Shown piece by piece: positions 25,406-50,900 of a DNA stretch of 64,000 bases. This DNA is from Burkholderiaceae bacterium (lineage in GTDB: Bacteria > Pseudomonadota > Gammaproteobacteria > Burkholderiales > Burkholderiaceae_D). A model generated the notes under the pieces. It was not told where the DNA came from, searched no databases, and saw only the letters and a program-made list of their open reading frames with translations. A program made the translations under genes and the position numbers. Numbering within the stretch: position 1 is the first letter of the stretch; each line of letters starts with the position of its first letter. Location of the stretch: positions 1,020-65,019 of the forward strand of contig DATBRC010000065.1 in the NCBI GenBank assembly GCA_036560485.1. Reading direction: 5' to 3'.

Positions 25406-25429
25406 TAGTTTATTCTGTGGTTTGTAAAA

Positions 25430-25465
25430 ATAACGCCGCTGACAGACTATTGTCGGCGGCGTTAT
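25430..25465 (+). terminator. Hairpin (partial terminator/attenuator) after the binding-protein gene
   Basis: ataacgccgctgac(25430-25443)/gtcggcggcgttat(25452-25465), 14-bp stem with one mismatch. No strong T-tract. Confidence 0.4.
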
Positions 25466-25520
25466 TGTGTGAAGAGAGACTTTATTTGTCTCACCTATTT
25501 CTCCATTATCAAATAACAGC

Positions 25521-26336: not shown

Positions 26337-27054
26337 TGCACTATTAAAATTATCCGGTGTTCACACCCATATCGGTCAGTATCATATTTTGCACGGCGTT
26401 GATCTCGTTGTACCGAAAGGCGAATTGACTGTTCTGCTTGGCCGTAACGGCGCGGGCAAAACAACTACCCTGCGAACCATCATGGGACTCTGGCAGGCTT
26501 CTGCCGGCAATATCATGTTCAATGGCAGTGATATCACCAAGACGCCAACTCCAGACATATCCCAAAGTGGTATCGCATATATACCGGAGAATATGGGAAT
26601 TTTTGCCGGTTTGACGGTGCGTGAGAATCTGTTACTGGCTTCACGCTCGGGCGATCTCGATGAAAAACGTCTCGACTGGATCTTCAATTTTTTCCCTGCA
26701 TTGAAAAAATTCTGGAATCAACCTGCAGGCAAGCTCTCGGGTGGACAAAAGCAAATGGTGGCTATTGCGCGCGCCGTTGTTGAACCACGTAAATTGATAT
26801 TAGTTGATGAGCCTACCAAAGGACTCGCACCCGCCATCATTCAACATCTTATTGAAGCATTCAGGAATCTGAAAGAGACCGATACAACCATTCTGCTGGT
26901 TGAGCAAAATTTCGCTTTTGTGTCTGCTCTCGGCGATTCGGTTGCCGTCATGGATGGCGGTGTCATTGTTCATAGCGGCCGCATGGCCGAACTGGTTGAA
27001 GACAAGGCTTTGCAACACAAGCTGCTTGGTCTTTCACTCGACGCTCATCAATAG
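26329..27054 (+). CDS. ABC transporter ATP-binding protein (LivF-like)
   Basis: GRNGAGKTT, LSGGQKQMVAIARA, LILVDEP. 8-nt overlap with the preceding gene. Confidence 0.9.
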   Translation: MSDALLKLSGVHTHIGQYHILHGVDLVVPKGELTVLLGRNGAGKTTTLRTIMGLWQASAGNIMFNGSDITKTPTPDISQSGIAYIPENMGIFAGLTVRENLLLASRSGDLDEKRLDWIFNFFPALKKFWNQPAGKLSGGQKQMVAIARAVVEPRKLILVDEPTKGLAPAIIQHLIEAFRNLKETDTTILLVEQNFAFVSALGDSVAVMDGGVIVHSGRMAELVEDKALQHKLLGLSLDAHQ

Positions 27055-27064
27055 GAAGGAAGCC

Positions 27065-28087: not shown

Positions 28088-28096
28088 GAGAATCAG

Positions 28097-34600: not shown

Positions 34601-37600
34601 GACATATTCTGTCGATAAACTGGGCCGCTCGTAGAGCGACAGATTATCCTGGCCTGCCGTTGTGTCTGATTCATTGGTATCGAAATCGGCCAACAGCACG
34701 TCCGACATTTTGCGATTCTTGCGCAGCAGCTTCTGAAAGTCAGTGGTCGAGATAACAGCTTGCGGCTTGCCGGACGATAGCGCACGATAAATGACATCGA
34801 TGCCTTCCATCGGCAGGATGGCAGTCTTGTTATCCTGCTGCTTCTGGCGCAGCACACTGTCATTTTGCGCCTTGACGGCTTGCTGCGGCGTATTCCAGAC
34901 ATCCCAATTGATGCTCACATATCGTGTCGCCGGATCATCCCGATGCGCATGTGCGATCGCATCAAGATAGGCACATGCGCTGACATAGCCCACCAGCCCA
35001 TAACCGGTGGTGGCAACCGACATCGATGAGCAAAGCAGAACGAAATCCAGTTTTTCATTCTTCAATACTTGAAGCAAATTGTCAGTACCAGCGACTTTCG
35101 GCGCCAGCACGGCATCGATGATGTCTTTCGATGTTTCCTTCACCGTCACGAACTCGCCATAACCGGCGCAATGAATCAAGCCATTGATAGCGCCGACATT
35201 CTTACGTATCTGCTCGACTGCATCAGCCAATTGCGCTGCATCGGTTACGTCAGCCTGCACAACCGTGACGGTCGCGCCTTGAGCCTGCAAGGCCTTGATT
35301 CCTTTGATCTGCTCTTTCAGCAGTGCATTCTCGTTTGCATCGGCAAGCAATGCATTCCACTTTTCTTCAGCCGGGAAAGCGCTACGCTGCAGCAATACCA
35401 AACGCGTCTTGTATGCAGCCAATGCTTGTGCATGCACCATGCCGACACCACCCAGACCGCCAGTGATGACGTAGATGCCATTTTGTTTGATATCGACATG
35501 CTGACCTGCATTGTCTTCGGTCACTAAAGGAATGTAATCTTTAACAAAGCGTAAGTTGTTTCTGAGCGCAATGGATGTATGGACTACTGAAGCGCCATTT
35601 TGCGCTGTCAGTATTTGCAACTCATTGAGAACAAACCGTATGAAATCCTCTGGCTTTGTTGTCGCCGCATTCACATCCAGCGTGACAAAACGGATATTCG
35701 GATGTTCATACGGAATGACGTTCGCCGGGCCGGTAATCAACGCCTGTGAGCAATCAACCTGGTCGGCATCCAATATGGCTTCGCGCTGATTGGTAATGCC
35801 GACGATGTTGACCATGTCGCTGTTGTTCGCCTCTAGTGCCTTCGCAAGATAGACGAAACTCAAATGAAGATTGGTGCGCAGTTGATCCTGATCTGTGGCA
35901 GATGACAAACTCCAGCCATGAAAAATTGTTTTGGGTGTCGCGTTTAAATCGATGAGGCGTTTAAGCAATAGTTGATAGTCGTTGCTGTTACCGGCAGCAA
36001 TTTCAAAATTATCTTGATCAATTTCGCTAAACTTTGCTCCCTGCGTCACGCAAACGACACGCGTGCCCTTCGTGCGCAATTGCACAATCACACCCTCACC
36101 ATAACGACGATCGTCAAGCAATGCCAATACTGTGCCTTGATCATCAGCTGCTGCTTGCGCCGGCTTGCGCTCTTCGAGGCGCCAACCTGGTTGCCATAAC
36201 CAATCCGCTATCGGCAGCTTTGCACCAGCGTGCGCAACGTCTTTCCTGTTCTCTACCCAATAACGCTTGCGATCAAACGGATAACCTGGCAAGCCGATGC
36301 GCTTGCGCTTTTCATCGGCATAAAAAGCTTTCCAATCAATGTCGATACCGGCGATCCACAGCTTGCCCATTGTTTCCAGCAAATGCGATTGATCGTCCTT
36401 CTCTTCCTTGATGTGTCTGAGCGTATTCAACAGCACTGCTTCCGATTTTTCCGGCAGTTGAGCGCGGACGAAACTACTAAGCGCATTGCCTGGTCCCATT
36501 TCAAGGAATATCGTATTGTCGTCTTTAAGCAGCATCGCTACGCCGTCAGAGAAAAGAACGGTCCGGCGCAAATGATTTTTCCAGTAATCTGCCGTGCTGA
36601 TTTCGCTTTGTTCGGCCCAGCCACCTGACATGTTCGAGATAAACGGGATCGACGATTTACCGAACTTGACCTTCGATAAGAATTGCCCGAATTCCTGCAT
36701 GATCGGATCGATCATCGGCGAATGACCCGCCGTATCGATCAACAATTTTTGATACTCGATCTGCTTCGCATCCAGCAGTTTGCCAAATTCCAGCATTGGT
36801 GTATGCCGTCCGGCCACAACGCAACGGCCCGGATCATTGATGGTCGCAATCGACACACCATCAATCAACATCGTTTTGACTTGCTCGGCAGGCAATGTCA
36901 CGCTGAACATGCTGCCCTTCTCGATTTTTTCGAATAGAGCGCCTCTGAAGCAAATCAGATCCACTGCCTGTTCCAAAGTGAATATGCCTGCTATGCAGGC
37001 TGCGGTGTATTCGCCCAAACTGTGGCCGATCATTGCATCGGGCTTTACTCCCCATGACATCCACAGTTTGGCCAAGCTGTATTCGACCGCAAACAAAGCA
37101 GCAAAGAAATTTTTCGGCTTTTGCAGAATGACGCTATGCGGTTCGGTGTGTGCGTCATCCGGATAAATCAAATCGATCACATCCAGATCCATCTTGCGCT
37201 TGAACAAGGCAGCACATGTATCCAATGTCTGCTTGAAATATGGCTCCTGCTCATACAGGTCGCGCGCCATATTCACATATTGCGTACCGCCGCCTGGAAA
37301 CATGAATACGATTTTCTTTTGTTTCTCCGGTCTCTTGCCTGCAAATCCTTTGGTCGGCGCAATGTTCGGCGCAATGCGACTTAGTTTTTCTGCGGGCACC
37401 ACGAAAGCGCGGCGAAAGCCAAAACCTTTACGGCCAACTTGCAATGTATAGGCAACATCGGCAATGCTTTCGTCGGAAGTCTTGGCCATGTAAGCAGAAA
37501 GATTTTCCGCCATCCTGTCGAGCGCGCTCGGCGTCTTGGCTGACAAAAGCAATAATTGCCACGATCGGCTTTCCGACGATTCCGCTTCCGGCGCTTCTTC

Positions 37601-38932
37601 CAGCACGATATGCGCGTTGGTGCCGCCGATGCCCAGGGAACTGACACCTGCTCGGGCCGGATATTCACCCGGCTCTATCCGTTCCAATTTATCGATCACA
37701 TAGAACGGACTGTTTGCAATATCCAGCTTCGGATTCGGACTTTCGAAATGCAGACTTTCGGGAATGACCTTGTGCTTGAGCGACAACGCAGCCTTGACGA
37801 TGCTCGCTGCACCGGCAGCTACACCAAGATGGCCGATGTTGGTCTTGACCGAACCGATGCCGCAGAAATTTTTCTTGTCGGTTTCCAGACGGAATGCACG
37901 TGTCAGTGCAGTGAACTCGATCGGGTCACCCAATTCAGTTGCCGTACCATGTGCTTCGATGAAACGGATGCTGTCCGGCTCAACGCCAGCGACAGCCTGC
38001 GCCTCGGCAATGATGTTGGTCTGACCGACTATGCTTGGTGCGGTGTAACCGATTTTTTCCGAACCATCGTTATTGACGGCCGAACCTTTGATCACTGCGT
38101 AGATCGTATCGTTGTCAGCCAGCGCATCATCCAGACGTTTGAGCAAGACAAAGCAGGTGCCTGCACCGCCTACTGTGCCTTTTCCTTTTGCGTCGAACGC
38201 GCGGCAGTATCCATCGGGCGAGCTGTAGCCGCCTTGATGGTAGACATGGCCGGTGCAATTCGGCGTGGCGAGATGCGATCCGCCCGCAAGCGCCATTTTC
38301 GATTCGCCGTTCAACAGGCTTTGGCATGCAAGATGTATGCAAACCAGTGAAGTCGAACAGGCAGTGCCCAGTGCAACGCTAGGACCGTTCAGATTCAGCT
38401 TGTATGAGATGCGCGATGCAAACATGTCCTTGTCGACGCTGATTTGCGTATCCAGCGCATCGCCTCCCGCAGTCGCCTCATCACCCTTGAGCAAATTGAA
38501 AATGAAATACGTGCTCATGTTCACACCGGCAAATACACCGACGCTGCCATTGACTGACTCCGGTGTATAACCGGCATGTTCCAGCGTTTGCCATGCGACT
38601 TCCAATGCAAAGCGATGTTGCGGATCGAGATTGGCCGCTTCGCGCGGGTTCATCTCGAAGAAGTGCGCATCGAACTTGTCCTGATCCGGAATGAATCCAC
38701 CTGCCGGAACAAAATGAGGATCGGCAAGTGCAGCCGGTGCTACGCCCATCTTTGCCAATTCATCCAATGAGAAGCGGGTGATGCAATCTCGCGAGCTGAC
38801 AAGATTGGTCCAGAACTCGTCGACACTATCCGCCATCGGAAAGCGTCCCGCCATGCCGATGATGGCGATATCATTATTCACGTCGTCGTAGTCGTCGTGT
38901 TCTTCGCTTGCGTAATCTTCTTTGGTTGACAT
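31619..38932 (-). CDS. Hybrid PKS/NRPS: KS-AT-KR-PCP-E(like)-C, 2437 aa
   Basis: KS Cys in GTACSTSLV (Cys192, 38357-38359). AT GHSLGE (Ser638, 37019-37021). KR Rossmann ITGGLGGVG. Carrier FFELGGESLL (Ser1480, 34493-34495). HHLVMDAIS (33938-33943). Terminal SNHQIILDGW (32522-32527). Confidence 0.95.
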   Translation of the reverse strand: MSTKEDYASEEHDDYDDVNNDIAIIGMAGRFPMADSVDEFWTNLVSSRDCITRFSLDELAKMGVAPAALADPHFVPAGGFIPDQDKFDAHFFEMNPREAANLDPQHRFALEVAWQTLEHAGYTPESVNGSVGVFAGVNMSTYFIFNLLKGDEATAGGDALDTQISVDKDMFASRISYKLNLNGPSVALGTACSTSLVCIHLACQSLLNGESKMALAGGSHLATPNCTGHVYHQGGYSSPDGYCRAFDAKGKGTVGGAGTCFVLLKRLDDALADNDTIYAVIKGSAVNNDGSEKIGYTAPSIVGQTNIIAEAQAVAGVEPDSIRFIEAHGTATELGDPIEFTALTRAFRLETDKKNFCGIGSVKTNIGHLGVAAGAASIVKAALSLKHKVIPESLHFESPNPKLDIANSPFYVIDKLERIEPGEYPARAGVSSLGIGGTNAHIVLEEAPEAESSESRSWQLLLLSAKTPSALDRMAENLSAYMAKTSDESIADVAYTLQVGRKGFGFRRAFVVPAEKLSRIAPNIAPTKGFAGKRPEKQKKIVFMFPGGGTQYVNMARDLYEQEPYFKQTLDTCAALFKRKMDLDVIDLIYPDDAHTEPHSVILQKPKNFFAALFAVEYSLAKLWMSWGVKPDAMIGHSLGEYTAACIAGIFTLEQAVDLICFRGALFEKIEKGSMFSVTLPAEQVKTMLIDGVSIATINDPGRCVVAGRHTPMLEFGKLLDAKQIEYQKLLIDTAGHSPMIDPIMQEFGQFLSKVKFGKSSIPFISNMSGGWAEQSEISTADYWKNHLRRTVLFSDGVAMLLKDDNTIFLEMGPGNALSSFVRAQLPEKSEAVLLNTLRHIKEEKDDQSHLLETMGKLWIAGIDIDWKAFYADEKRKRIGLPGYPFDRKRYWVENRKDVAHAGAKLPIADWLWQPGWRLEERKPAQAAADDQGTVLALLDDRRYGEGVIVQLRTKGTRVVCVTQGAKFSEIDQDNFEIAAGNSNDYQLLLKRLIDLNATPKTIFHGWSLSSATDQDQLRTNLHLSFVYLAKALEANNSDMVNIVGITNQREAILDADQVDCSQALITGPANVIPYEHPNIRFVTLDVNAATTKPEDFIRFVLNELQILTAQNGASVVHTSIALRNNLRFVKDYIPLVTEDNAGQHVDIKQNGIYVITGGLGGVGMVHAQALAAYKTRLVLLQRSAFPAEEKWNALLADANENALLKEQIKGIKALQAQGATVTVVQADVTDAAQLADAVEQIRKNVGAINGLIHCAGYGEFVTVKETSKDIIDAVLAPKVAGTDNLLQVLKNEKLDFVLLCSSMSVATTGYGLVGYVSACAYLDAIAHAHRDDPATRYVSINWDVWNTPQQAVKAQNDSVLRQKQQDNKTAILPMEGIDVIYRALSSGKPQAVISTTDFQKLLRKNRKMSDVLLADFDTNESDTTAGQDNLSLYERPSLSTEYVAPSTDEEKLLASIWQETLGISKIGVNDNFFELGGESLLGVKIVVKAKKMGLFLETKQMFATPTIGEIVKNLKKSNAVIVDQSLVMGTSPCSPIQQQFLNTSWSNKDHWNVGALLNVTQTISEPALKMVVLCLLEQHDVLRSHFVRNEQGAWQQTYTSANSDQHVAWVDLTSTTGGAFSEQVQQHCQRLQSEMHIENGPLFKLAYFKAADSAHNKLALLFHHLVMDAISLGIVIEDLQTLLAASATDRKTDMAKLLPAKTTSYKDFSTGLPTRVASLQADLLYWQNVAGEVAKIPCEMSIDIARGSNLEGDIASLSASLDADSTQRLSQQAAKHTGLKINELLLAVLAKTISDWQQQPNVIIDMVHHGRPDFDTMDFSRTVGWFGTGSPIPLKLSASPLTSQLASLKSQIQSVPQQGLSLAWLKTLHDDLTVRKMLSQIPAAAISLNYIGQINQLIAGGMTTDAQDAIRTLRDPSNQRLYQHDVIAYSQNGQIALNWNFSKKQYHEATIQGLLNTLIENLQALSNADWNAIQSSGSRHKISDATLQACGISADQIEDCYGLTAFQSEIYRRYSDESKPLANVTQAVTVMEGPIDKRLLQAVWQALVARHKVLRTRFMHDVNGEPAQVVCKHADFALIELDYSHLDEAGQQQALMQLQVKDRLTRYDLSKAPALRLYWVMLSPQAGRFAIVMSNHQIILDGWTSSLLSKDLIMCLMSMVSGKDLPAMQNQADFGRYIDWLERQSLDDALLHWRKAFDGYRHVEPLQSLMSASSSITKAEDSYAESQLVIDDNLLNSVQETARASQTTSNAVFQAAWALSLAQLSGANDVVYGATVSGRSADFDGITEIIGQCTNSLPVRVSLASDMTVAQLLQVVHRANAQAQTHNLPSLKQIANAIGHTGNDNLYSSNFIFENIPRADSGGVELPIKTIAALWTDGWQFPLRVFIVPEEKTWVRFAFDKSRFAITDIEKLAQRYQKNLIELTKSIHAPVLQITV
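31622..32965 (-). other. Terminal condensation domain (DCL-like); last domain of the line
   Basis: IEDCYGLTAFQSEIY and SNHQIILDGWT. The protein ends right after this domain, with no A, T or TE. Confidence 0.7.
32978..34360 (-). other. Epimerisation-like domain lacking the EGHGRE glutamates
   Basis: SPIQQQFL, FHHLVMDAISLG, MVHHGRP (33494-33511) in place of EGHGRE, and SRTVGWFG. Confidence 0.65.
34388..34615 (-). other. NRPS-type carrier (PCP) domain serving the PKS module
   Basis: YVAPSTDEEKLLASIWQETLG...FFELGGESLLGVKIV. This is the PCP-style GGxS motif rather than the ACP-style LGxDS. Confidence 0.75.
34733..36235 (-). other. KR domain incl. structural subdomain (approx. aa 900-1400)
   Basis: GIYVITGGLGGVGMVHAQAL (35401-35480 region). 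Catalytic region SSMSVATTGYGLVGYVSACAYLDA. Confidence 0.65.
36383..37300 (-). other. AT domain (approx. aa 545-850) with a TAGH specificity motif
   Basis: FMFPGGGTQY, GHSLGEYTAA, and IDTAGHSPMI with TAGH at 36722-36733 (aa 734-737). Confidence 0.75.
37598..38875 (-). other. KS domain (approx. aa 20-445)
   Basis: DIAIIGMAGRFP..., GTACSTSLV, EAHGTATELGDP, GSVKTNIGHLGVAAG. Confidence 0.8.
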
Positions 38933-38964: not shown

Positions 38965-41900
38965 TTACCGCGACGTCTTGCGCTCACGCGAACGATTTCG
39001 ACGCTGCATTGCAGCGCGTCTTTCTTGTCCGGCATTACGCGCTGCATCTGCGGCTGGAGCGGGTGTTTGACCACCATGCTGCCCGAGGAATATTGCCAAC
39101 TTCTCAATAGTGGTGGAATTGAACAACTCGACCATGGGAAACTCGATATTCATTTGCTGCTGAATCTCGTGATGCAGTTTGACGATCAAGAGCGAATTGG
39201 CACCGACATCGAAGAAATTATCCTTGATGCCGATCGGCTCTGCCGCGCCGAATACGCTGGTGGCAATCGCCGTCAGCGTTTCTTCCAGCTCATCGCGTGG
39301 TGCAATTTTCTCTACTTTGGCTGAGCCGGACTGTGCAAAAGTTTTGCGTAAAGCTGCCAGATCAATTTCACCGCTTGCTGTTTTTGGCAAAGACTCAACC
39401 TGAATATATTGCACATGCAATGACAAACCAAATTCGTCGGTTAGCACTGCTTCAGCGGCAACCTCATTCGTGATGCCTGGTTCATTGGCCGCGAAATAAC
39501 ACACCAGCTGTCGATCCGACGGTTGAACGTCCGTCACCAGCTGTCGAATATTGGGTCTGGTATCGTCCAGGCCGATCAGTACATTGCGGCGGCCGTGATA
39601 CAACACCACCAGCATCGAGAACAATCCCTTGCTCGCCACAATCGGTGTAAAGCCGAGTGCTTTCGACAAACTCTCCGCTTGCTTGTACTGGCTGCCCATG
39701 CCGGTGTCATGCCAGAGACTCCAGCTGATGCACACGCTACGGACATTTTTGTTGTCGCGCACCGATTCGACAAAGGCTTCCTGATAACGATTGCCGATGT
39801 TGTACGCCGCCATGCCGCTGCCGCCGAAGAATCCATTGACCGACGAAAAATTTACAAACAAGGTATCGGTCCTGTGGTTGCAAATGTTATAGAGCACGCG
39901 CGTTCCGGATGTCTTGGCGCGCAGCACATCATGCAAGCTGTGTATCGTTTGTCCGGCCATCGCTTCTTCATGCGCCAGACCGGCAAGATGAAATACACCC
40001 GCCAATTTTTGTTTCCACTCTGCTTCCGCTTTGTCCACAGCAGATTCGACCGCCGCATGGTTGCAGATATCCGCATCGGCATATTGCACATTGCCCATGC
40101 CGGCGAGCTGATCCAGCATGTCCTTCTTGTCGGCCGGCAGTTTTTCCAACGGTGTCCTGCCGATCAACAATAATTTTGCGTTAAATTGTTTCAACAACAT
40201 CCTGGCGAGCTCGTAACCAATTCCGCCCAGCCCGCCCGAAATCAGATAACCGCCGCCGGAGACGAGCGGCATCTCGCGTTTTTCGCGAATGACCCGGCGC
40301 TCCTTGCGCAAGCGTACGACAAGCCGCTTGCCATCGCGGTAAGCGACTTCATCGATTGCATGATAAGTCACGATTTCGCGCTTCAACCATGCTGCATGGT
40401 CGGCGATATCATTGCCTTCAAAATCTACATGGTGACATTTGAGCCATGCAAATTCTTTTGGCAAAGTCTTCATCAGCGCCAGCGTAGCCGCCTTGTCGGG
40501 GCTGATGACATCGCTGCCATTCACGCATTGTGCTTTGCGTGCAGCCCAAATCCAGCGCATGGTCGGCGGCGTCTCCAATGCAGCAAATGCCTGCGCCAGA
40601 TACCATGCCGAATACAATCCGATCGCATCGGACAACGTGGCTTTAGTCAACAGCGCATCGGCAGTGCGTGCATTCGATTCATAATCCCACAGGTTCACGA
40701 CACGGCTGATCGTGATTGAACGTTGGGTCAGCGATGCTACCAACTGCACGTAATGTTCCTGTACGCCCGGATTGATTTGATAAGAATCGCCACGGTCTTG
40801 ATATGCCTGCCCCTGTGTAACTGTGATCACATGGCCCGACAAACCAAGTGCAGCCGCGCAACCTGCAAAGTCGGCAAACACAAGCGTCGCACCGACAGGA
40901 GATAACTCGACCACATTATTCAAACGCTTTTGCACCCATGTCTTGCTGAACGACCAATCAGGCAATGTGTTCTCATTGCGCTCCGCCAGATCGAGTGCGC
41001 GCAATGCATAATCGAATTCACCACGATTGAATGATTGCGCTAGTTTGATTAATTGAATCTTGCCGATTTCCGTCTTCGGCACCTGATCTTTTTCCACCGG
41101 AACAATAAAGGATGGATTGATGCCGATTTTTTCCACGACGGCTTGACGAATCAGTTTGATCAGCCCCAACAGAGGTTCGCCTTTTTGCGCGGTGTTGAAG
41201 AAAATCGCCAGCTGATCGCTGTTGCTGCCATTGCGGCGCACTGCGCATGCGCCGGTATAGGACACCACGACGCCTGGCACGGTTTCCACCACTTCGGCAA
41301 TCTCATGACCGTAGAAATTCACGCCATTGATAATGATGACGTCTTTCTCGCGCCCGGTGATTGTCAATTCGCCATTCTGGATGAATGCCAGATCACCTGT
41401 CTTGAACCAGCCATCCTGTGTGAAAACATCCTTGTTGACGTTCTCACCGCCCAGATAGCCCTTGGTCACTGTCACACCGGATACTTGCAAACGGCCGGAC
41501 TGCCCTTCCATCATCACCTGATCATGTTCATCGACGATACGCATGTTGACACCCGGGATCGGGCGTCCTACCGAAACGAATACCGTGTCATCGCTGCCGT
41601 AAGTCAACTGCAGACGTTTTGCATAGGTCACACCGGATGAAATTTCAGACATGCCGTAAACAGGTTTCACCGAATCTTCAGCAAGCTTGAATTGTTGCAG
41701 CAGCTCGATGAACGCCTGCGTAGTTTTCGGCACCACGGCTTCTGCACCGTTCAGCATGAAGTGCAGGCAACTTAAATCAAGCGTCAACTTCTTCAGTTCC
41801 TCCTGACGCTCGACAATCAAAGCGAAAGCAAAATTGGGCGCCCAAGTGATATTGACCCTATGCTGATCGATCAATCGCAACCAGCGCAACGGATCGGCCA

Positions 41901-44900
41901 GGATGTAATCCGTATCGGCTTGCACTTGTGTCGCGCCAAGATACGCATCGCGGATATGGAAGTAGATGATGCCACCGACGTGATCCAGCGCCATCCAGTT
42001 CAACGACACCATGTCGGAATGGAAGCCGTTCATTTGTGCCGAACCGAGTGTGCGGCCAATCAGGTTGGCATGGGTCAGCTGCACACCCTTCGGCAAACCG
42101 GTGCTACCCGATGTCAGCATGATCAGCGCCACATCATCGGATGCGCCTTGATGGAAATCATGCGCTGGTTCAGCTTCATACAACGATGTAATCTCATGCA
42201 CATCGAAAGCGTCGATCTTCTCCAGCGTACCGATATGGCGCACGCCTTCAACAATATTTTCACCGGCGAGGACGATCGCCTTGTCCATCATGTTCCATGC
42301 ATGCGCAACTTTGACAGTTTGCGCATTGCTGGTTCGGTAGTTCTTTGCTGCTGCGATTGGAACCGGAATGAAACCGCCTAACTCACAAGCCCAGAACGAG
42401 ACGATGAAATCCTCGTTCCGATCGAATTGAAAAATAACCTTGCTGCCAACCGTCAATCCCGTTGCGCGCAAACCGCCCAACACACATTGCGCTTTATGCA
42501 GCAGCTTTACATACGACATGCTGGTTGTCGAGTTATCTGCATGGTAAAACTCGATGACCTTGTCGCCATGTACTTGTGCCGTATTGATGATCATGTCGGC
42601 CAAACTATTTGGACGTCTGATCACCTCAATGATCGGCTCGCTGATGATGAGCGCAGGAGACTTCGATATCGATTCGTTGTTGATTTTTCTGGTCTTGCTA
42701 ACAATCGATGCAGCATTGCCGCTTGTACCGCGCGCCTCTATCGGCAACAAGTCGAGCAAATGCGATACCGGCTGCTGTTCGCTGATCATTTGCGATATGA
42801 CCACTGCCTCATTGATCTTGCCAATTTGACTTACCTTGCCTGTCCACAATTGTCTTGTCACCGGATTGTGCACTGCATACTTGTACAACTGCCTTGCATT
42901 GACTTCGCCATGTCTGGTCAACGGAATCGCGCCAACCTTGACACAAGCAAACACGTTGATATCTGTGAATCCAGATGACTGCAGATACTGTGTGAAATCC
43001 TCTGCATCCGGCTCTTCATCTTTGCAAACCAGATAGACAACGATTTGATTACCTAACTCGGCATGTTCCCGAATCGCGACATGGCAATCCTGCACATCAG
43101 GTCTCGTCAGCAACTGCTGTTCGACGACACGTGGATATACGAGTTGATTATTGATCAATGCAACATCGTCGACAGACGACAACAAGACCAGTCCATTGGC
43201 AGTCTGGCGTGCGGTGAAACCGCTGGCCAACAGCTTATACAAACGGCCGTTAATGTTTACTTCAGCGATGCGGCCATTCAAAAGGGTGGACGTATCCGTC
43301 TGGCCTTTTATCTCGAAATACAATTTGCCAACAACACCATGCGGCACGGCATTACCTGTGGCATCAAGAAGATAATAATTCGCGATATCGCTTTCCGACA
43401 CAATTGCTTTGCCATATAGCGCACGCAAAATCGGATAGGCATCCAGCGTAATTGAAGCAGGCGTAATCGCGTTATCGGGTGCAAGCGATAGTCCGGACAC
43501 CTTATGCTGCGGACTGGCAATAATGGCATTCAGCAAATGAATGAATGCCGATACGAAGCCCTGAATCGTTTCGCGTTTAAATAGATCGGTGTTGTATTCA
43601 AAACTGCCGGACAAGCCATCGGGCGTAGTCATGAACTCCAACAGCAAATCGAACTTGGCAGTCTTGTTTTCCAGTGCGATGTTGTCGATCGTTATACCGG
43701 GCAACGTGAAGCTGTTGGCCGCTGCATTCTGCTGGAATGAAAATGACACCTGGAACAACGGCGACCGCGATGGATCGCGCTCCGGCAGCACCAAGTCCAC
43801 CACCTTTTCAAACGGTATGTCCTGGTTCGAATAAGCTTCCAGCGTAGTTTTCTTGACCTGCTGCAGCAATGCCGCAAAAGTCGGATCGCCATCCAGATCG
43901 GAGCGTAATGTCAGCGTGTTGGCGAAGAAACCGATCAACGGTTCAATTTCGGCACGCACTCGATTGGCGATCGGTGTGCCGATACTGATATCGGTGTCAC
44001 CCGAATATTTGCCAAGCATCACATTGAATGCGCTCAACAAGGTCATGAACAAGGTAGCGCCTTGATGATGGCTCAACTCGTCCAGTGCAGCGACCATCGC
44101 TTTGTCGATGACAAATGAGGCACGGTCACCGTTGTAAGTCTGATTGCGTGGCCGCTCAAAATCCAGCGGCAATGAAAGCGTCGTCAGATCTTTAAGCTTC
44201 TTGCTCCAATAAACACTTTGCTGTGTCAGCACCGGCCCTTGCAGGTATTCGATTTGCGATACCGCATAATCGGCATACTGCACCGGCAAGTCCTTCAGCT
44301 TCGCTGGAGTCTTGCTCACATTAGCTGAATACAATGCCGTGATTTCGTTGATCAATATGTTAATTGACCAGCCGTCGGCAATAATGTGATGCATGTTGAT
44401 GAATAATCGATATTCATCATCGGCAAACTTGCACAGCGAGACGCGTAACAAGGCATCAGACTCAAGATTGAAAGCCGTCTTTAGCTGTGCATCGATATAA
44501 GCAGAAAATTCTGCTTCCTTCTCTTCAACAGTTCCACCCTCAAGCTCGATTACATCCATAGCCCAATCGATCGATGAGTGAATCTTCTGGAAGCCCTGCC
44601 CTTGATCCGAGATGAAATTGGTGCGCAGTACTTCATGCCGTCCAATCAACGTGACGAAAGCATGGTTAAGCGCATCGACATCCAGGTCGCCGACGATCTT
44701 CATCACGCTCGGCATGTGATAGAAATTGCTGTTCTCTTCGTAACGGTCAAGGAACCACAAGCGCTGCTGTGCGAAGGACAGCGGCACCTTGTCGCGCTGA
44801 TCGAGAATACGAATCGGATTTTCAACGTAGCTCGCGTTGGCGTGTTCGATCACAACCGCAAGGCGCTCAATGGTTGAATTTTCGAAGAATTGCTGCAACG

Positions 44901-47900
44901 ATAATTCGACACTGAATTCCGACCGAACGCGCGCAACGATCTTCGTGGCCAGCAATGAGTGGCCGCCCAGTTCAAAGAAATCGTGGTGCGTGCCGATATC
45001 CTGGATATTGAGGATGCCGGACCAGATATCAGCCAGTCGCTTCTCAACCGGCGATTTCGGCGCGACATACAAATCGTCTTCACCTTCGTTGAGCGGATAA
45101 TTCTGCAGCGCGAGACGATCGATCTTGCGATTCGGCGTCAGCGGCATTGCATCCAATTCCACAAACAATGACGGCACCATATAGTTCGGCAACTTCTCGC
45201 TGACCACTTTGCGCAATTCTGCCGAAGTAAGATGATGCGCATGATCTAATCGCGCATAGAAACACACCAGCCGTGCCAAGCCCTGCTCGTCATCGCGACT
45301 GTTGACCACGACTTCCACAATGCCCGGCACAGTGCGCAATACATCTTCGATTTCAGTCAACTCGACACGGAATCCGCGGATGCTGACCTGGAAATCTTCG
45401 CGGCCGATGAATTCAATTTCGCCATTCGGCAAATAACGCCCAAGGTCGCCGGTCTTGTACATGCGTGACGTTCTGTCATCGCTGAACGGATTCGGAATAA
45501 AGCTCTTTGCCGTTGCTACCGGATCATCGACATAGCAAGTCGCCAGACCAACGCCGGCTGTATGAATTTCGGCAATCACACCGATCGGCACCTGCTTCAG
45601 GTTTTCATCCAGCAAGTACATTTGCGTATTGGGGAATGCCTTGCCGATGGTGAGTTTTTCGCCGACTTGCCTGTACTCATACAAAGTCGAACCGATCGAC
45701 ACTTCCGAATTGCCGTACAGGTTAAGGAAGCGCACACCAAGCGCCGTCCACTTCGCCACTACCGCATCGTTGCAGGGCTCGGCGGAGGAAACCACCACAC
45801 GCAGACTCTTGGGCATGCGATCCACCGGGACGGTGGACAGCAGCGACACCGGCCAGGTCACGTGGGTAATCTGGTTTTCTTCCATGAATTCGTACAAGGG
45901 TTCGTCCGGCAGGTTTTCCTTGGACGTAACGCTATAGATGGTGCCGCCAGGCACCCACGCCATGTACGTGCCCCAGAACGCGATGGAGAAACTCAGCGAA
46001 GCGAACTGCAGCACGCGGCTGTCGGGTGTATGCAATCCGGCCCACTGCTGCGAATTCGCCATGTTGCGGAAGGCGCGATGGCCAACCAGGATACCCTTTG
46101 GCTTGCCGGTGGTGCCGGAGGTGAACAGGATATAAGCCGAATGGCCGGCGCCAATGCGCGGCGGATTGGAGATGGGCTGCGACTGGATCGCGTCCCATTC
46201 TGTATCGAGGGCGACGATCTCGGCGCCAGTATCGGCGAACAGCGGCTTCAAGTGTTCCAGCGTCAAAATGATTTTCGGCTTGGCGACGTCGAGCATGCGC
46301 TCGATGCGGTCCTTGGGATAATTCAGGTCGATGGGCACATAAGTACCGCCGGATTTGGCGACCGCCAGCCCGCTGATGCCGGCCCAAGTCGAACGCTCGA
46401 CCGAAACGCCTACCCTTGCCTCGGGGCCGACGCCGCGGCTTTGCAGGAAATGTGCGAGCCGGTTGGCGCGCGCGTTCAATTCGGCAAAGGTAAATCGGTC
46501 ATCGCCGCAGACATATGCCAGTTTGTTCGGCATGCGTTGCACGGTGCGCTCGAACAAGTGGTGCATACATTCGTCTTGCGGATAATCGATATCCGTTGCA
46601 TTCCAGCGTCGTACCTGCTCCATTTCCTCTTGCGTTACCACCGACAGTTTTTCGATGGCGATCGTGGAATCCGACATCGCGGCTTCCAGAATGGTCTGGT
46701 AATGCTTGGCAATGCGCGCGACCGTTTGCTCACTGAAAATGTCGGTAGCAAACTCGATCACGCCTTTCAGGCCATCGCCTGTTTCTGCCAATGAGAAATT
46801 CAAATCAAGCTTGGCGCTTTGTGTCGGCAGGTTGATCAGTTCGCTGCGCAATCCGGCAAACGAACTCGTCTGTGCCATTTGCTGATTATGCAAACGGAAC
46901 ATCACCTGGAAAATCGGCGGCACACCAAGGCTGCGTTCAGGCTGTACGGCTTCCACCACGCCGTCGAACGGCACGCTGCTATTGCTGAATGCTTCCAACG
47001 CTTCATTACCTACTGCGGCAACCAGCTGCTGGAAATTATCTTTCGCATTGACGCGGCAACGAATCACCAATGTATTGGCGAAGCAACCGATCAATGGCTC
47101 CAATTCCTTTTGCGGACGATTGGCAACGGCTGTACCAACCGGAATATCGTTGGTGCGTCCATAACGCGACAATAAAATCGCGAGGCCTGACAACAGCAAG
47201 TTATACAAGGTCGTATTGTGTTGCCGCGCATACTGGTTCAGGCGCGCTGTCAAACTGAACGGCAAACTGATCGGCAATTCCTTGCCGCGATAACTCTGAA
47301 TCGGCGGACGCGGATAGTCGAGCGGCAGATTCAGCAACGGCGCCAAGCCATCCAGTTTCTTCTTCCAGAAATCGGTCTGCTTGTTGAAGGTATCGCCGAC
47401 GATATTTTTCTGCTGCCATTGCGAATAATCGCCGTATTGCAATTCGAGTTGCGGCAATGGGCTCGGTTTACCGGCACTAAAGCTGCTGTAGAGCGCAATC
47501 AACTCGTTCATCAGAATATTGAGCGACCATCCATCTGCTACAACGTGGTGCACCACCAACGTCACGACATGATTGTCGTCGGCGATACTCAATAGACGAA
47601 TGCGTATCGGCAATTCGTTTTCAAGGTCGAATATATAAGTGAAATCGGCGCGCACCTGTTCTTCGACATCTTCCTCGGCGACCTGCACGATCTGCAGCTT
47701 GAACTCGCTTGCAGGAACGATTGCCTGTAACGGCTCGCCATCCCTGGACGGGAATAAGGTACGCAACGATTCATGGCGCTCAATCAACGCATGGAAAGTT
47801 TTCTGCAATGCCGTAACATTCAACTCGCCATGCATACGCATTGCAAATGGAATGTTGTAGGTATAGCTGCCGCCCTCAAGCTGATGCAGGAACCAGTATG

Positions 47901-50900
47901 GCTTTTGATCGAGCGATAAAGGAATCGAACCAGTTTCTTCCCGCTTGCTGATCGCAGGTAAAGCCGTTCCAGGTGTGTCTTCCTGTCCAGCTAAAAAGAT
48001 CGCCAGCGACTCGACAGTCGTATGGGTAAACAAATCCTTGATCGTCAGCGGCAAGCCCAGTCCATCCTTGACGCGCGATACCACTTGCACCGCAAGCAGC
48101 GAATGCCCGCCGATCTCGAAGAAGTTGCGATTGACGCTGATATTTTTCTGGCCGAGCACTTCAGTCCAGATTGCTGCGATCTTTTCTTCCAGCGGATTTC
48201 TCGGTGCAACGTATGCGATGCTTTGATCGTCGTCCAGCGTAGGCTTGGGCAAACCGAGACGATCAACCTTGCGGTTAGGCGTCAACGGCATTGCATCCAG
48301 TTTCACAAACAGCGATGGCACCATGTAACTCGGCAGCTTGCGGCTGACCAATGCGCGCAACTGTCCGGCATCGAGACCCTGTGCGTCCGGTTTTTCGACA
48401 TAGAAGCACACCAGACGTCCAACCTTGTTTGCATCGAGCTGGCTGACTACAACGACTTCGGCGATGCCGGGCGCGGCACGCAAAACGTTTTCAATCTCGA
48501 CCAGCTCTACACGGAAACCGCGGATGCTGACCTGGAAATCTTCTCGACCTATGAATTCAATTTCACCATTCGGCAAATAACGTCCCAAATCGCCGGTCTT
48601 GTACAAGCGCTCCGGCTTCCCCTTTGCGAATGGATTGGGGATAAAGCTATTGGCTGTCGCTTCCGGATTATCCCAATAACAGGTTGCCAAACCGGCCCCT
48701 GCCGTATGAATTTCTGCGATGACACCAATCGGCACTTGCCGCAAATGTCTATCGAGCAGATACATGCGTGTATTCGGGAAAGCGACGCCTATCGTCAGCT
48801 TCTGGCCGACTTTGTGATACTCATACAAAGTGGAGCCGAGCGACACTTCTGAATTGCCATACATGTTCAGGAAGCGCACGCCGCGCGCAGTCCAGCGTGC
48901 GACGACGGCATCGTTACACGGCTCAGCCGAAGAAATGATCGTTTGCAAACTGTTCGGCATGCGCTCAACCGGCAAGGTTGATAACAGCGAGACCGGCCAT
49001 GTCGCGTGCGTGACTTTTTCACGCTCCAGCAATCCATAAAGTGATTCGCCGGGCAACGCTTCGTCTTGTGTCACAGCGATCAACGTCCCGCCAGGCACCC
49101 ACGCCATGAAGCTGTCCCACATCGAGATCGAAAAGCTCAGCGATGCAAACTGCAACACACGATTATTCGGCGAGTGCAGTTTTGCCCAGCGATGCGATTC
49201 CGGCATGTTGCGGAAACTGCGATGGCTGATCAGGATTGCTTTCGGACGTCCGGTCGTGCCGGAAGTGAACAGGATATAAGCCGAATGATCCGCGCCGATA
49301 TGCGGCAGGTTCTCCGTCGGTTTGGAGGCAACCGTTTCCTGGATCTGCTCGACGTGAATGACTTGCGCAATCCTGTCGTCGAACAGTTCGGAAATTTCAT
49401 CAGTCGTCAAAATGATCTTCGGCTTGACCACATCGAGCATGATGTCGATCCGCTCTCTCGGATATTTTGGATCGAGAGGAACATAGGTGCCGCCAGCCTT
49501 GAATACTGCCAGCATGCTGACGCCAGCCCATGACGTACGGCCGACGCTGACGCCGACCCGTACTTCCGGTCCGACACCAATCGATTGCAGATAATGCGCG
49601 AGCTGGTTTGCCTTGGCGTTCAATTCTGCATAGGTAAAACGATCATTGCCGCACACATAGGCCAGTTTGGCCGGCATCTTTGCACAGGTTTGTTCGAACA
49701 GATGGTAGACACATTCATCCGTTGGATACGGAACGACTGTGTTATTCCAGTTTTCAACCAGATCGAATTCTTCTTTGGATAAAAGATTCAGGCTTTCAAC
49801 TTCTGCATCGGGATGTACCATCGCCGATTCAAGCAGCAACTGGAAATGGCGCGTGATGCGGCGTACGGTTTTTTCCGAGAACAGGTCGGTCGCATATTCG
49901 AGAATGCCTTCGATGCCGGCATCGGTCTCAGCCAGTGAGAAATTCAAGTCGAGCTTGGCGCTTTCGCTCTCGATATTAATCAGTTCAGCTTCAAGATCGG
50001 CGAATTGAATACCTTGGCCAGTCTTGTGATTATGCAGGCGGAACATCACCTGGAATAACGGTGGGACGCCCAGGCTGCGTTCAGGCTGCACTGCGTCCAC
50101 CACGACATCCAGCGGCACTTCCGCATGTTCATAAGCATCAAACACAACGCCATTGACGCGCTTGACCAGATCGATAAAGCTGCGGGTTTGATCAACCTTG
50201 TTACGCAATACCAGTGTATTGGCGAAGCAGCCGATCAATGGTTCCAGATTGGTCTGCGAGCGATTGGCAATTGCCGTGCCGACGACGATGTCTTCACTAC
50301 GGCTGTAACGTGACAGCAGCACATTCAAACCAGCAAGCAACGTATTGAAAAGTGTTGTATTGTTCTTGCGCGAAAATGCATTCAGCGCTTGCGTCAATTC
50401 AAACGGCAGCACAAAACCAACTTCCCTGCCGCGATAACTTTGCACCGGCGGTCGAGGATAATCGGTTGGCAGATCGATCATCGGCGGCACGCCCTTGAGC
50501 TTGTCGCGCCAGTAGCCGACCTGCTTCTCGTAATAAGCACCCACCAGATTCTGCTTTTGCCAAACAGCATAGTCGCCGTATTGCACCTGCAGTGGCGCCA
50601 ACGGATTTTCCTTTTGCGCGACGTGGGCGTTATACAGCTGCGCCAATTCTCCCATCAGGATTCCCAACGACCAGCCGTCGGCCATCGTGTGATGCAACAA
50701 TACCGTCAATACATAATCGTCATCGTATAGCTTGTGCAGCACTGCACGGATCGGAATCTCTTTTTTCAGATCGAACACATGGCGCGCATCCAGTTCAATC
50801 TGTTTGTCGAGGATTTCCTTGTAACGATTATCTTTTTTACTGTCGATAATCAGCTTGAATTCAGGCGAAGGTAAAACCTGCTGCAACGGCGCGCCGTTTT

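What the first reader, a model, noticed from the sequence alone, without database searches (positions are those of the whole stretch)
39058..44808. C domain followed by an A-domain remnant, then a FAAL-like ligase-KR-carrier tridomain
After C5 (intact MHHIIADGWS) come about 215 residues that resemble only the C-terminal part of an A domain (YYLLDATGNAVPHGVVGKLYFEIKG ... IPLTRHGEVNARQL). This stretch has no A1-A5 cores and no carrier. It is followed by a complete second fatty-acyl-AMP-ligase-type domain (LTSGSTGLPKGV, YGMSEISS), a KR (GGLGGIGYEL; AAYNIGN) and the only available acceptor carrier (GANS, Ser6765). Known A-KR-T depsipeptide modules use NRPS-type A domains to load 2-keto acids. Here an ANL/FAAL-type ligase appears to have displaced the A core and left a scar. 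Hypothesis: the ligase loads a keto acid, the KR reduces it, and C5 forms an ester (or other unusual) bond before hand-off to the KS.
Basis: partly seen in the sequence, partly recalled or inferred. Interest (0 to 1): 0.7.

Follow-up and report, generated by a model that had tools for sequence, protein, structure and literature searches.

The report
Standard keto-acid depsipeptide NRPS module
The stretch is an ordinary member of an already described type of peptide-synthetase module that loads a 2-keto acid, reduces it to a hydroxy acid and joins it through an ester bond; the "A-domain scar" in front of the ligase is a published, conserved feature of this module type.

Summary
After an intact C5 domain, the 6840-aa NRPS (38965..59487, minus strand) has a catalytically dead A6-A10 piece of a canonical A domain. 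It has no A1-A5 and no carrier. A complete ligase, a KR and the carrier with Ser6765 follow.

The novelty premise is wrong. The ligase-KR-carrier unit matches the solved StsA keto-acid module (PDB 6ULW) from end to end: phmmer E 1.6e-206, and top Foldseek hit of the model. It carries both keto-acid signatures: Val5837 at the Asp235 position, and Gly-Met in A5. The known A-KR-T depsipeptide modules use this same FAAL-like ligase type ("KAL").

A 2026 PNAS paper (PMC13643306) describes C-Ax-KAL-KR-T modules and four-domain modules that keep a partial Ax with A6-A10 motifs. This module is one of the latter.

New here:
- The remnant is under purifying selection (dN/dS about 0.09) and is predicted to fold.
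- A short element after the remnant and a piece after the KR align as the two halves of one split Asub.
- These upstream and post-KR parts co-occur in 63 of 63 homologues.

The path from ester formation to a KS, with a CCR alongside, mirrors antimycin AntC/AntD/AntE.

Verdict: a new member of a known kind, of low interest.

The parts
44857..45039 (-). T4, the donor carrier of the preceding amino-acid module (ORF residues about 4817-4877, FFELGGHS)
   Evidence: Pfam PP-binding; motif scan
43474..44796 (-). C5 condensation domain (residues 4898-5338) with intact HHIIADG at 5033-5039. It is the predicted ester-forming step.
   Evidence: Pfam Condensation, 385 bits; motif. Ester formation is inferred from the precedents CrpD-M2 and AntC C2.
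42853..43458 (-). Partial Ax: the dead C-terminal third of a canonical NRPS A domain (residues about 5344-5545). It spans degenerate A6 to A10 and includes a complete but inactive Asub. A7 reads LLASGF, A8 reads SSVDDVALINNQ, and A10 reads PLTRHGEVN (Lys to Glu).
   Evidence: Alignment with the protein's own A1-A4; PDB phmmer E 2e-7; blastp against A1 E 1.6e-9; sub-threshold AMP-binding_C only; model pLDDT 80-93 and Foldseek hits to A-domain C-termini; dN/dS 0.09
42727..42852 (-). Conserved element after the remnant's A10 (residues 5546-5587, LWTGKVSQIGKINEAVVISQ...HLLDLLP). It is the predicted N-terminal half of the split pseudo-Asub.
   Evidence: Family-wide consensus WE..L...P.V.qAAVV...HLsDLLP. 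hhalign to canonical Asub columns 20-47, probability 86.8%. pLDDT about 80 with a helix and strands when modelled together with KAL-KR. Co-occurs with the post-KR piece. StsA precedent.
42580..42726 (-). Low-complexity linker into the ligase (residues 5588-5636)
   Evidence: pLDDT below 50 for residues 5588-5606; poorly conserved
40993..42579 (-). KAL, a 2-keto acid AMP ligase with core plus its own Asub (residues 5637-6165). A3 is TSGSTGLPKG. Val5837 in LDHVGG sits at the Asp235 position. A5 is YGMSE (Gly5945-Met5946). A7 is FKTGD. A10 is PKTEIGK, with Lys6143 retained.
   Evidence: Pfam AMP-binding, 171 bits. phmmer to StsA 6ULW E 1.6e-206, with I306 and G414-M415 aligned. Foldseek top hits 6ULW, 4R0M and 6ULX. 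Motifs.
40258..40992 (-). Linker plus the structural (pseudo) KR subdomain (residues 6166-6410)
   Evidence: Pfam PF21394 at piece positions 1589-1728; aligned to StsA 695-890
39700..40257 (-). Catalytic KR (residues 6411-6596). It has GGLGGIG at 6418-6424, Lys6525, Ser6548/6549, Tyr6562 and Asn6566.
   Evidence: Pfam KR, 125 bits; residue-by-residue alignment to the StsA KR; coordinates
39283..39699 (-). Post-KR piece (residues 6597-6735). It is the C-terminal two thirds of an Asub (QLVCYFAA ... SLPKTASGEID, Lys to Glu) plus an A-T-type linker (IAPRDELE). It forms the second half of the pseudo-Asub.
   Evidence: No Pfam hit. Aligned to StsA 1150-1240. hhalign to canonical Asub columns 38-119, probability 97.2%, E 4e-11.
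39073..39282 (-). T5 acceptor carrier (residues 6736-6805). The phosphopantetheine attachment site is Ser6765, in FFDVGANS (codon 39193-39195).
   Evidence: Pfam PP-binding; the motif is also conserved as GANS in P0001 and P0003
38968..39072 (-). Basic C-terminal tail (residues 6806-6840, ...ERRAAMQRRNRSRERKTSR), a possible docking element towards the KS protein
   Evidence: Read directly from the translation. The downstream protein starts with an acidic stretch, EDYASEEHDDYDDVNND. Docking is an inference.
31619..38932 (-). Downstream acceptor: KS-AT-KR-T-E-C protein (2437 aa). It starts 32 nt after the NRPS stop codon.
   Evidence: Pfam; TIGR01720; motifs
30268..31596 (-). Crotonyl-CoA carboxylase/reductase, the probable supplier of an alkylmalonyl extender unit
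   Evidence: TIGR01751, 456.9 bits against a cut-off of 378.55

Best explanation
Residues 4898-6805 of the NRPS form one elongation module of the known keto-acid (depsipeptide) type, C-[partial Ax]-KAL-KR-T.

Proposed mechanism:
1. The KAL ligase adenylates a 2-keto acid, probably a small or medium aliphatic one, and loads it on Ser6765 of T5.
2. The in-cis KR reduces the tethered 2-ketoacyl thioester to a 2-hydroxyacyl thioester, using NADPH.
3. C5 then lets that hydroxyl attack the lipopeptidyl thioester on T4, which makes an ester.
4. The depsipeptidyl chain passes to the KS of the next protein. There it is extended with a malonyl-type unit, probably supplied by the CCR.

The A-like remnant has no catalytic role. 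It is a retained, folded piece of an ancestral canonical A domain. The short element just after it and the piece after the KR are the two halves of a split Asub (the 'pseudo-Asub' of the StsA crystal structure). This probably braces the KR within the module.

Shown here: the homology, the motifs, the conservation, the co-occurrence and the predicted folds.
Inferred: substrate class, order of steps, the ester bond, the docking and the structural role.
For: Homology to the keto-acid module:
- Full-length match of residues 5652-6805 to StsA A-KR-T (6ULW), E 1.6e-206, 691 bits. McyG is second.
- The KR to T part is aligned with all catalytic residues.
- The AlphaFold model (pLDDT 84.3) has 6ULW as top Foldseek hit over about 1165 columns.

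Keto-acid determinants:
- Val at StsA I306 / Asp235, and Gly-Met at StsA G414-M415.
- Their meaning is taken from PMC11253843 and PMC13643306.
- LDHVGG and xGMSE are family-wide.

Nothing competing between C5 and the KAL:
- No complete A domain and no carrier there.

Architectural class:
- In 22 homologues the C-to-KAL spacers fall into two classes, 179-352 aa and 507-633 aa, with one outlier at 882 aa. This module's spacer is 298 aa.
- This fits the published four-domain class with a partial Ax.

The remnant is constrained:
- dN/dS is 0.09, against 0.08 for C5 and 0.135 for the KAL, in the comparison with a relative at 79-86% identity.
- It is predicted to fold like an A-domain C-terminus.

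Split pseudo-Asub:
- hhalign probabilities of 97.2% and 86.8%, colinear with a canonical Asub.
- 10 of 10 homologues without an upstream region also have a short KR-to-T spacer. 53 of 53 with an upstream region have the long spacer.
- The StsA crystal shows N-terminal residues plus post-KR residues forming this domain.

Hand-off to a KS, with a CCR:
- Gene order.
- The same cassette occurs in Noviherbaspirillum sedimenti.
- Biochemically established precedent in antimycin AntC(C2-A2-KR-T2)/AntD/AntE (PMC3869250).
Against: - No biochemistry and no product are known.
- The substrate cannot be named. My motif-based reading of the pocket (V G I N M N V S G K, against I G V N M N A S A K for StsA) is approximate, and I had no panel of labelled references.
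- C domains that precede KAL modules do not form a clade of their own in a quick NJ tree. C5 groups with C1 of the same protein. So nothing in C5 itself marks it as ester-forming.
- dS is near saturation (0.9-1.4), so the dN/dS values are rough.
- I could not inspect model coordinates. The contact between the upstream element and the post-KR piece is therefore inferred, not seen.
- The element's hhalign match is only moderate (86.8%).
Confidence: 0.85

Rival explanations
1. The remnant is a neutral evolutionary scar, a decaying leftover with no present role.
For: - All catalytic residues of A7, A8 and A10 are lost.
- Pfam no longer detects it above threshold.
- It diverges faster than the catalytic domains in the distant comparison: 54% against 68-77% identity to N. 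sedimenti.
- A subfamily of KAL-KR-T-TE proteins does without any upstream region.
Against: - dN/dS is 0.09 in the close comparison, the same as C5.
- The Asub part and the following element are present in 80-99% of 70 homologues that have at least 150 aa upstream.
- It is predicted to be folded, with pLDDT 80-93.
- It co-occurs strictly with the post-KR piece.
- The StsA crystal shows N-terminal residues completing the pseudo-Asub.
Confidence: 0.12
2. The ligase is a true fatty-acyl or aryl-acid AMP ligase (FAAL- or McyG-like) that loads a non-keto acid. The KR would then act on something else or be idle, so no ester is formed by the route proposed.
For: - The ligase is closer to the protein's own N-terminal FAAL (27.5% identity, E 9e-44) than to its A1-A4 (21-25% identity, E about 1e-17).
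- After StsA and McyG, the best structural matches are FAALs.
- McyG, the second-best match, loads phenylpropanoid-type acids.
Against: - Identity to StsA extends through the pseudo-KR, the KR, the pseudo-Asub and T, not only the ligase.
- Both keto-acid determinants are present.
- NCBIfam FAAL models score far below their cut-offs: PRK09192 at 228 against 600, PRK05850 at 157 against 775.
- C5 needs a nucleophile on the acceptor. Only reduction of a 2-keto group, or a pre-formed hydroxy acid, would supply one.
Confidence: 0.06
3. The module is inactive or skipped, and the lipopeptide passes from T4 directly to the downstream KS.
For: None specific. The unusual GANS carrier motif and the degenerate region might raise the suspicion.
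Against: - All catalytic motifs of C5, the KAL, the KR and T5 are intact.
- dN/dS is 0.08-0.14 across the module.
- GANS is conserved in the closest relatives.
- The same cassette is kept in N. sedimenti, where it is the only module in front of the KS protein.
Confidence: 0.03

Closest known systems
StsA / cereulide-type keto-acid module (A-KR-T; PDB 6ULW, 6ULX, 6ULY; Alonzo et al. 2020, as summarised in PMC10510592 and PMC11253843)
   Same: - The same ligase clade, with a hydrophobic residue at Asp235 and Gly-Met in A5.
- The same pseudo-KR plus KR.
- The same post-KR pseudo-Asub piece and carrier.
- Colinear over about 1150 residues.
   Different: - StsA module 1 is an initiation module with no C domain and only a short N-terminal element. 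Here the module is an elongation module with C5 and an extra 200-aa dead A6-A10 piece.
- Foldseek reports about 32% identity over the roughly 1165 aligned columns. I did not compute a figure for the ligase alone.
- The organism is a Burkholderiaceae-type proteobacterium rather than a Bacillus.
Four-domain C-KAL-KR-T modules with a partial Ax (CrpD-M2 of cryptophycin) and five-domain C-Ax-KAL-KR-T modules (Dol15D-M2, PyrG), PMC13643306
   Same: - An embedded KAL does the activation.
- A degenerate canonical A domain sits between C and the KAL.
- The four-domain class keeps only A6-A10, exactly as here. The C-to-KAL spacer is 298 aa, within the 179-352 aa class.
   Different: - This is not the five-domain class, because A1-A5 are absent.
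- The paper reports these modules mainly from actinobacteria and cyanobacteria. This one and its closest relatives are from Burkholderiaceae / Oxalobacteraceae-type genomes.
- The module feeds a KS rather than a TE or another C domain.
Antimycin assembly line: AntC (C1-A1-T1-C2-A2-KR-T2), AntD (KS-AT-ACP-TE), AntE (CCR), PMC3869250
   Same: The same logic: keto acid loaded, reduced in cis, and condensed by the upstream C domain. The chain is then handed to a single PKS module whose extender comes from a CCR.
   Different: - The starter differs: FAAL-ACP lipoinitiation and four amino-acid modules here, against 3-aminosalicylate plus Thr.
- The PKS protein here carries its own KR and ends in T-E-C instead of a TE.
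- No sequence comparison with Ant proteins was possible with the tools. This is a 'works like' statement, not a claim of membership.
Fatty acyl-AMP ligases (FAAL; e.g. 3PBK, 7R7E, FadD32)
   Same: - The ANL fold.
- The ligase is nearer to FAALs than to amino-acid A domains in both sequence and structure.
   Different: - It scores far below the FAAL family cut-offs.
- It has the keto-acid Gly-Met / hydrophobic-235 signature.
- It is fused to the KR / pseudo-Asub apparatus that defines KAL modules.

Membership tests
Keto-acid-activating NRPS module (KAL-KR-T; StsA/Ces/CrpD-M2 type) | ANL ligase of the KAL clade with complete A3, A5, A7, A8 and A10 cores | tested here: met
   phmmer to 6ULW E 1.6e-206 and to 6ULX E 6.6e-128. 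Motifs TSGSTGLPKG, YGMSE, FKTGD and PKTEIGK are present. Foldseek top hits are 6ULW, 6ULX and 6ULY.
Keto-acid-activating NRPS module (KAL-KR-T; StsA/Ces/CrpD-M2 type) | The Asp235 equivalent is replaced by a hydrophobic residue | tested here: met
   Val5837 in LDHVGG aligns with StsA I306. Dol15D-M2 has Val219 at this position.
Keto-acid-activating NRPS module (KAL-KR-T; StsA/Ces/CrpD-M2 type) | Gly-Met in the A5 core, in place of the Gly-Pro of amino-acid A domains | tested here: met
   YGMSE (Gly5945-Met5946) aligns with StsA G414-M415. The protein's own A1-A2 read YGPTE/YGPSE, while its A3-A4 read YGNSE, so the Gly-Pro contrast holds only for A1-A2.
Keto-acid-activating NRPS module (KAL-KR-T; StsA/Ces/CrpD-M2 type) | In-cis KR with structural subdomain, NADPH motif and Lys/Ser/Tyr | tested here: met
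   PF21394 plus PF08659. GGLGGIG, Lys6525, Ser6548/9 and Tyr6562-x3-Asn6566 align to the StsA KR.
Keto-acid-activating NRPS module (KAL-KR-T; StsA/Ces/CrpD-M2 type) | Pseudo-Asub formed by residues upstream of the ligase plus about 70 residues after the KR | tested here: inconclusive
   Both halves are present and colinear with a canonical Asub (hhalign 86.8% and 97.2%), and they co-occur across homologues.
Keto-acid-activating NRPS module (KAL-KR-T; StsA/Ces/CrpD-M2 type) | Carrier domain with a phosphopantetheinyl serine directly after the pseudo-Asub | tested here: met
   PP-binding; FFDVGANS with Ser6765.
Keto-acid-activating NRPS module (KAL-KR-T; StsA/Ces/CrpD-M2 type) | Adenylation of a 2-keto acid, and its reduction while on the carrier | not testable with these tools
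   This needs enzyme assays.
Four-domain C-KAL-KR-T class with partial Ax (PMC13643306) | A partial Ax-like region keeping A6-A10 but not A1-A5 lies between C and the KAL | tested here: met
   Alignment to the protein's own A1-A4 starts just before A6. No PF00501 hit. Alignment with full-Ax homologues. Spacer of 298 aa.
Five-domain C-Ax-KAL-KR-T class (Dol15D-M2, PyrG) | Ax retains the whole A1-A10 architecture | tested here: not met
   A1-A5 are absent. The spacer of 298 aa compares with 507-633 aa in the full-Ax homologues.
Fatty acyl-AMP ligase (FAAL) | Scores above the curated FAAL family thresholds | tested here: not met
   PRK09192 scores 228 bits against a cut-off of 600. PRK05850 scores 157 against 775. 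The best matches are keto-acid ligases instead.
Fatty acyl-AMP ligase (FAAL) | The FAAL-specific insertion that blocks CoA ligation | not tested
   Not examined; it would not change the verdict.
Antimycin-type depsipeptide assembly logic | A C-A(KAL)-KR-T module directly upstream of a KS-AT module, with a CCR in the operon | tested here: met
   Domain order; CCR TIGR01751 at 457 bits; precedent described in PMC3869250. This shows the same logic only. Homology to Ant proteins was not tested.

The most novel reading that the evidence does not exclude
The module keeps relics of two different canonical A-domain C-termini in addition to the ligase's own Asub. One is a complete but dead A6-A10 piece. 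The other is a second Asub that is split around KAL-pseudoKR-KR. Both are kept under purifying selection. If so, the 'scar' would be a load-bearing scaffold, and the origin of keto-acid modules would have needed more than one insertion into one A domain. Separately, the cluster would make an undescribed lipodepsipeptide-polyketide in Burkholderiaceae by antimycin-like logic, with an unusual T-E-C ending.
Probability: 0.4. Interest if true: 0.3.

Novelty: new member of a known kind. Interest (0 to 1): 0.15.

Why it matters
Mostly as a correction. A ligase that looks FAAL-like and is fused to a KR and a carrier, with a degenerate A-domain piece in front, is the normal signature of a 2-hydroxy-acid (ester) position in a nonribosomal product. 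It should be annotated as such and not flagged as an anomaly.

For this cluster it predicts an ester-linked 2-hydroxy acid between a lipotetrapeptide and a polyketide unit. The producer is a Burkholderiaceae-type bacterium, a group poorly represented among described keto-acid modules.

The conservation and co-occurrence data add modest support to the published idea that the leftover A-domain parts are structural. That matters to anyone who wants to transplant KAL-KR-T units when engineering depsipeptides: the upstream element should be moved along with them.

Tried and rejected
1. Finding the source genome or close loci in the GTDB-representative genomes with the 1502-aa query. There were 22 pattern matches and none was confirmed. 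The window's genome is apparently not a species representative. The closest proteins are MAG fragments from Burkholderiaceae (96% and 86% identity) and Noviherbaspirillum sedimenti (65%).

2. Looking for an 'ester-forming' clade of C domains. An NJ tree of 40 C domains showed no common clade for C domains that precede KAL modules. C5 sits with C1 of its own protein. There was no bootstrap, and I did not pursue it.

3. Naming the substrate from the specificity pocket. StsA (2-ketoisocaproate) was the only labelled reference. The pocket is similar but not identical, so I left it at 'aliphatic 2-keto acid, unresolved'.

4. The primary StsA paper (Alonzo et al. 2020) is not in the library. I relied on two reviews and the 2026 PNAS paper for its content.

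5. dN/dS against N. sedimenti. dS is saturated (1.1 to above 2.9), so only the MAG comparison is used as evidence.

6. Checking contacts between the upstream element and the post-KR piece in the AlphaFold model. Coordinates are not exposed. Two weak hints remain. The element is better ordered when modelled with KAL-KR (pLDDT 82/85/69/82 for its first four 10-residue blocks). It is less ordered when modelled with the remnant alone (75/72/60/56 for the blocks nearest it). The two alignments differ, so this is not decisive.

7. A model spanning the remnant through the post-KR piece (1281 aa or more) exceeds the 1200-aa limit.

8. Rejected: that the remnant hides a carrier or a functional A domain.

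9. Rejected: that the ORF is interrupted or frameshifted here. It is a single ORF.

Full report
**Setting.** The finding lies inside one uninterrupted 6840-aa ORF on the minus strand (38965..59487). Its layout from Pfam and motif scans is:
- FAAL-ACP;
- four C-A-T modules, with HHxxxDG at residues 828, 1885, 2932 and 3980;
- C5, with HHIIADG at 5033;
- a 298-aa stretch with no Pfam hit above threshold;
- an AMP-binding domain (5637-6012) with its C-terminal subdomain;
- the structural and catalytic halves of a KR;
- a final carrier.

Thirty-two nucleotides downstream begins a KS-AT-KR-T-E-C protein (31619..38932). A crotonyl-CoA carboxylase/reductase follows it (30268..31596; TIGR01751, 457 bits against a cut-off of 379). 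A type II thioesterase and a PPTase are transcribed divergently upstream.

**Check of the observation.** The stretch after C5 aligns with the protein's own A1-A4 only from just before core A6 through A10. Nothing corresponds to A1-A5. Three independent comparisons show it is a real relic:
- phmmer against the PDB finds residues 381-545 of the FscH A domain (E 2e-7).
- blastp against A1 gives 27% identity over 176 aa (E 1.6e-9).
- Scanned alone, it gives a sub-threshold AMP-binding_C hit (22.5 bits) and neither PF00501 nor PP-binding.

The catalytic residues are gone. A7 reads LLASGF, A8 reads SSVDDVALINNQ, and the A10 lysine is Glu.

**What the ligase-KR-carrier unit is.** The segment from the ligase to the end of the protein matches one solved structure from end to end. 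That structure is the A-KR-T keto-acid-selecting module of stratospherulide synthetase StsA (6ULW): E 1.6e-206, query 23-1176 against chain 122-1309. The McyG A-PCP is second.
- The alignment places Val5837 (LDHVGG) on StsA I306, which is the Asp235 position.
- It places Gly5945-Met5946 (YGMSE) on StsA G414-M415.
- These are the two features that the literature gives as the basis of 2-keto acid recognition (PMC11253843; PMC13643306).
- The KR half aligns with the NADPH motif and Lys/Ser/Tyr-x3-Asn conserved. The alignment continues through the post-KR piece into the carrier.
- An AlphaFold model of residues 5546-6740 (36-sequence alignment, mean pLDDT 84.3) has 6ULW as its top Foldseek match over about 1165 columns. 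That entry is titled 'Adenylation, ketoreductase, and pseudo Asub multidomain structure of a keto acid-selecting NRPS module'. McyG, the isolated StsA A domain and then FAALs follow.

The ligase really is nearer to FAALs than to amino-acid A domains. It shares 27.5% identity (E 9e-44) with the protein's own N-terminal FAAL, against 21-25% (E about 1e-17) with A1-A4. But this is true of all characterised keto-acid modules.

The 2026 PNAS paper on dolastatin 15 (PMC13643306) makes the following points:
- It names these ligases KALs.
- It places them in their own ANL clade, apart from FAALs and canonical A domains.
- It shows that Dol15D-M2 and PyrG have the order C-Ax-KAL-KR-T with a degenerate full-length Ax.
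- It states that four-domain modules such as CrpD-M2 'retain partial Ax-like regions' with A6-A10 motifs.
- It proposes KAL recruitment followed by Ax reduction.

**Placement among relatives.** A search of the 5.8-billion-protein collection gave 374 hits. Mapping the domains on the best 120 shows two classes of spacer between the C domain and the KAL:
- 179-352 aa in 8 proteins;
- 507-633 aa in 13 proteins, plus one of 882 aa.

This module, at 298 aa, belongs to the short class. Most initiation-type KAL-KR-T proteins carry about 190-210 aa before the ligase, and this region aligns to the Asub part of the remnant. The closest relatives are Burkholderiaceae MAG fragments (96% and 86% identity) and Noviherbaspirillum sedimenti (65%). 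In N. sedimenti the same C-remnant-KAL-KR-T | KS-AT-KR-...-C | CCR cassette follows only one amino-acid module.

**Is the remnant a mere scar?** Several results say no.
- Against the MAG relative, dN/dS is 0.09 for the A6-A10 piece, 0.08 for C5 and 0.135 for the start of the KAL. The flanking linkers give 0.25-0.27. dS is about 1, so the values are rough.
- A model of residues 5339-5640 is confident (pLDDT 80-93) over about 5368-5555. It matches the last 175-210 residues of LgrA, PA1221, PheA, EntE and other ANL enzymes at E about 1e-11.
- Beyond the remnant's own A10 lies a short family-wide element (LW...INEAVVISQ...HLLDLLP, residues 5546-5582). Its profile aligns with the helix and strand that follow A8 in a canonical Asub (hhalign 86.8%).
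- The post-KR piece aligns with the rest of a canonical Asub and the A-T linker (97.2%, E 4e-11).
- The two are colinear, as if KAL-pseudoKR-KR had been inserted into an Asub. This matches the description of the StsA crystal, where about 30 N-terminal residues and about 70 post-KR residues form the pseudo-Asub (PMC10510592).
- Across homologues the two parts co-occur without exception. All 10 proteins with fewer than 45 aa before the KAL have a short KR-to-T spacer (69-101 aa). All 53 with at least 108 aa upstream have a long one (108-146 aa).

I could not inspect model coordinates, so the physical pairing remains an inference.

**Mechanism.**
- Shown: a complete KAL with the keto-acid signature, an intact KR, one carrier, an intact C5, and no other A domain or carrier in the module.
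- Inferred from the characterised homologues (Ces/StsA, CrpD-M2, Dol15D-M2, AntC): the KAL loads a 2-keto acid on Ser6765. The KR reduces it on the carrier. Only then does the acceptor have a nucleophile. C5 forms the ester with the T4-bound lipopeptide.
- The chain then moves to the downstream KS. A very basic tail on the NRPS and a very acidic head on the KS protein may serve as docking partners.
- The combination of a keto-acid module, a single PKS module and a CCR is the established logic of antimycin biosynthesis (AntC C2-A2-KR-T2, AntD, AntE; PMC3869250).
- The substrate is unresolved. The pocket read from motif positions resembles that of StsA (2-ketoisocaproate) with conservative aliphatic changes.

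**Verdict.** The feature is a regular member of a described module class, so it is not surprising to a specialist. What is new is limited to three things: membership in a Burkholderiaceae cluster of unknown product, supporting evidence that the leftover A-domain parts are constrained, and the point that the module contains both a complete dead Asub and a separate split one. Interest is 0.15.

Noticed in passing
window 31619-38932 (-): The downstream protein reads KS-AT-KR-T-E-C. Its carrier is PCP-like (FFELGGES), followed by an epimerisation-type domain (HHLVMDA, TIGR01720 region). The terminal C domain has a motif that reads NHQIILDG, with Gln at the position of the second, catalytic His of HHxxxDG. 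There is no TE in the protein, so the release chemistry is unclear.
   Followed up: partly
window 30268-31596 (-): A crotonyl-CoA carboxylase/reductase (TIGR01751, 457 bits, above cut-off) sits at the end of the operon. It suggests an ethyl- or alkyl-malonyl extender for the single PKS module, as with AntE in antimycin.
   Followed up: partly
window 38968-39072 (-) and 38860-38932 (-): The NRPS ends in a strongly basic tail (ERRAAMQRRNRSRERKTSR). The KS protein begins with a strongly acidic stretch (EDYASEEHDDYDDVNND). This looks like a complementary docking pair.
   Followed up: no
window about 44850-51090 (-), ORF residues about 2800-4880: Modules 3 and 4 look like a recent tandem duplication. 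C3/C4 cluster together, and A3/A4 share long identical runs such as IGVIAEIHTAG.GLATCY and GREDFQVSIRGFRVEL.
   Followed up: no
L001 (Noviherbaspirillum sedimenti QYUQ01000002.1) 4294-24205: The same cassette (TEII, PPTase, FAAL-ACP-C-A-T-C | C-remnant-KAL-KR-T | KS...C | CCR), but with only one amino-acid module. The first two gene calls overlap at 10001-10206 inside a C domain. This could be a frameshift, an assembly error or a real split.
   Followed up: no
homologues P0032, P0036, P0038, P0047, P0048, P0054, P0057, P0061, P0069, P0108: A subfamily of KAL-KR-T(-TE) proteins lacks both the upstream Asub-like region and the post-KR pseudo-Asub piece (KR-to-T spacer 69-101 aa). So the KAL-KR unit can exist without any relic of a canonical A domain. 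This may represent the donor type of the insertion.
   Followed up: partly
window 62610-63338 (-): An IS200-like (Y1) transposase lies just beyond the PPTase at the edge of the cluster. The window's genome was not found among the GTDB species representatives.
   Followed up: no
window 60256-61771 (+): Genes for a type II thioesterase and a HetI/Sfp-type PPTase overlap by 20 nt and are divergent from the NRPS. N. sedimenti has the same pair, also overlapping and on the strand opposite its NRPS genes.
   Followed up: no
window 22449-29200: FlhC (22449-23006, minus strand) and a five-gene branched-chain amino-acid-type ABC importer (24023-29200, plus strand) flank the cluster. The importer could be unrelated, or it could feed branched-chain precursors of the keto acid.
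   Followed up: no
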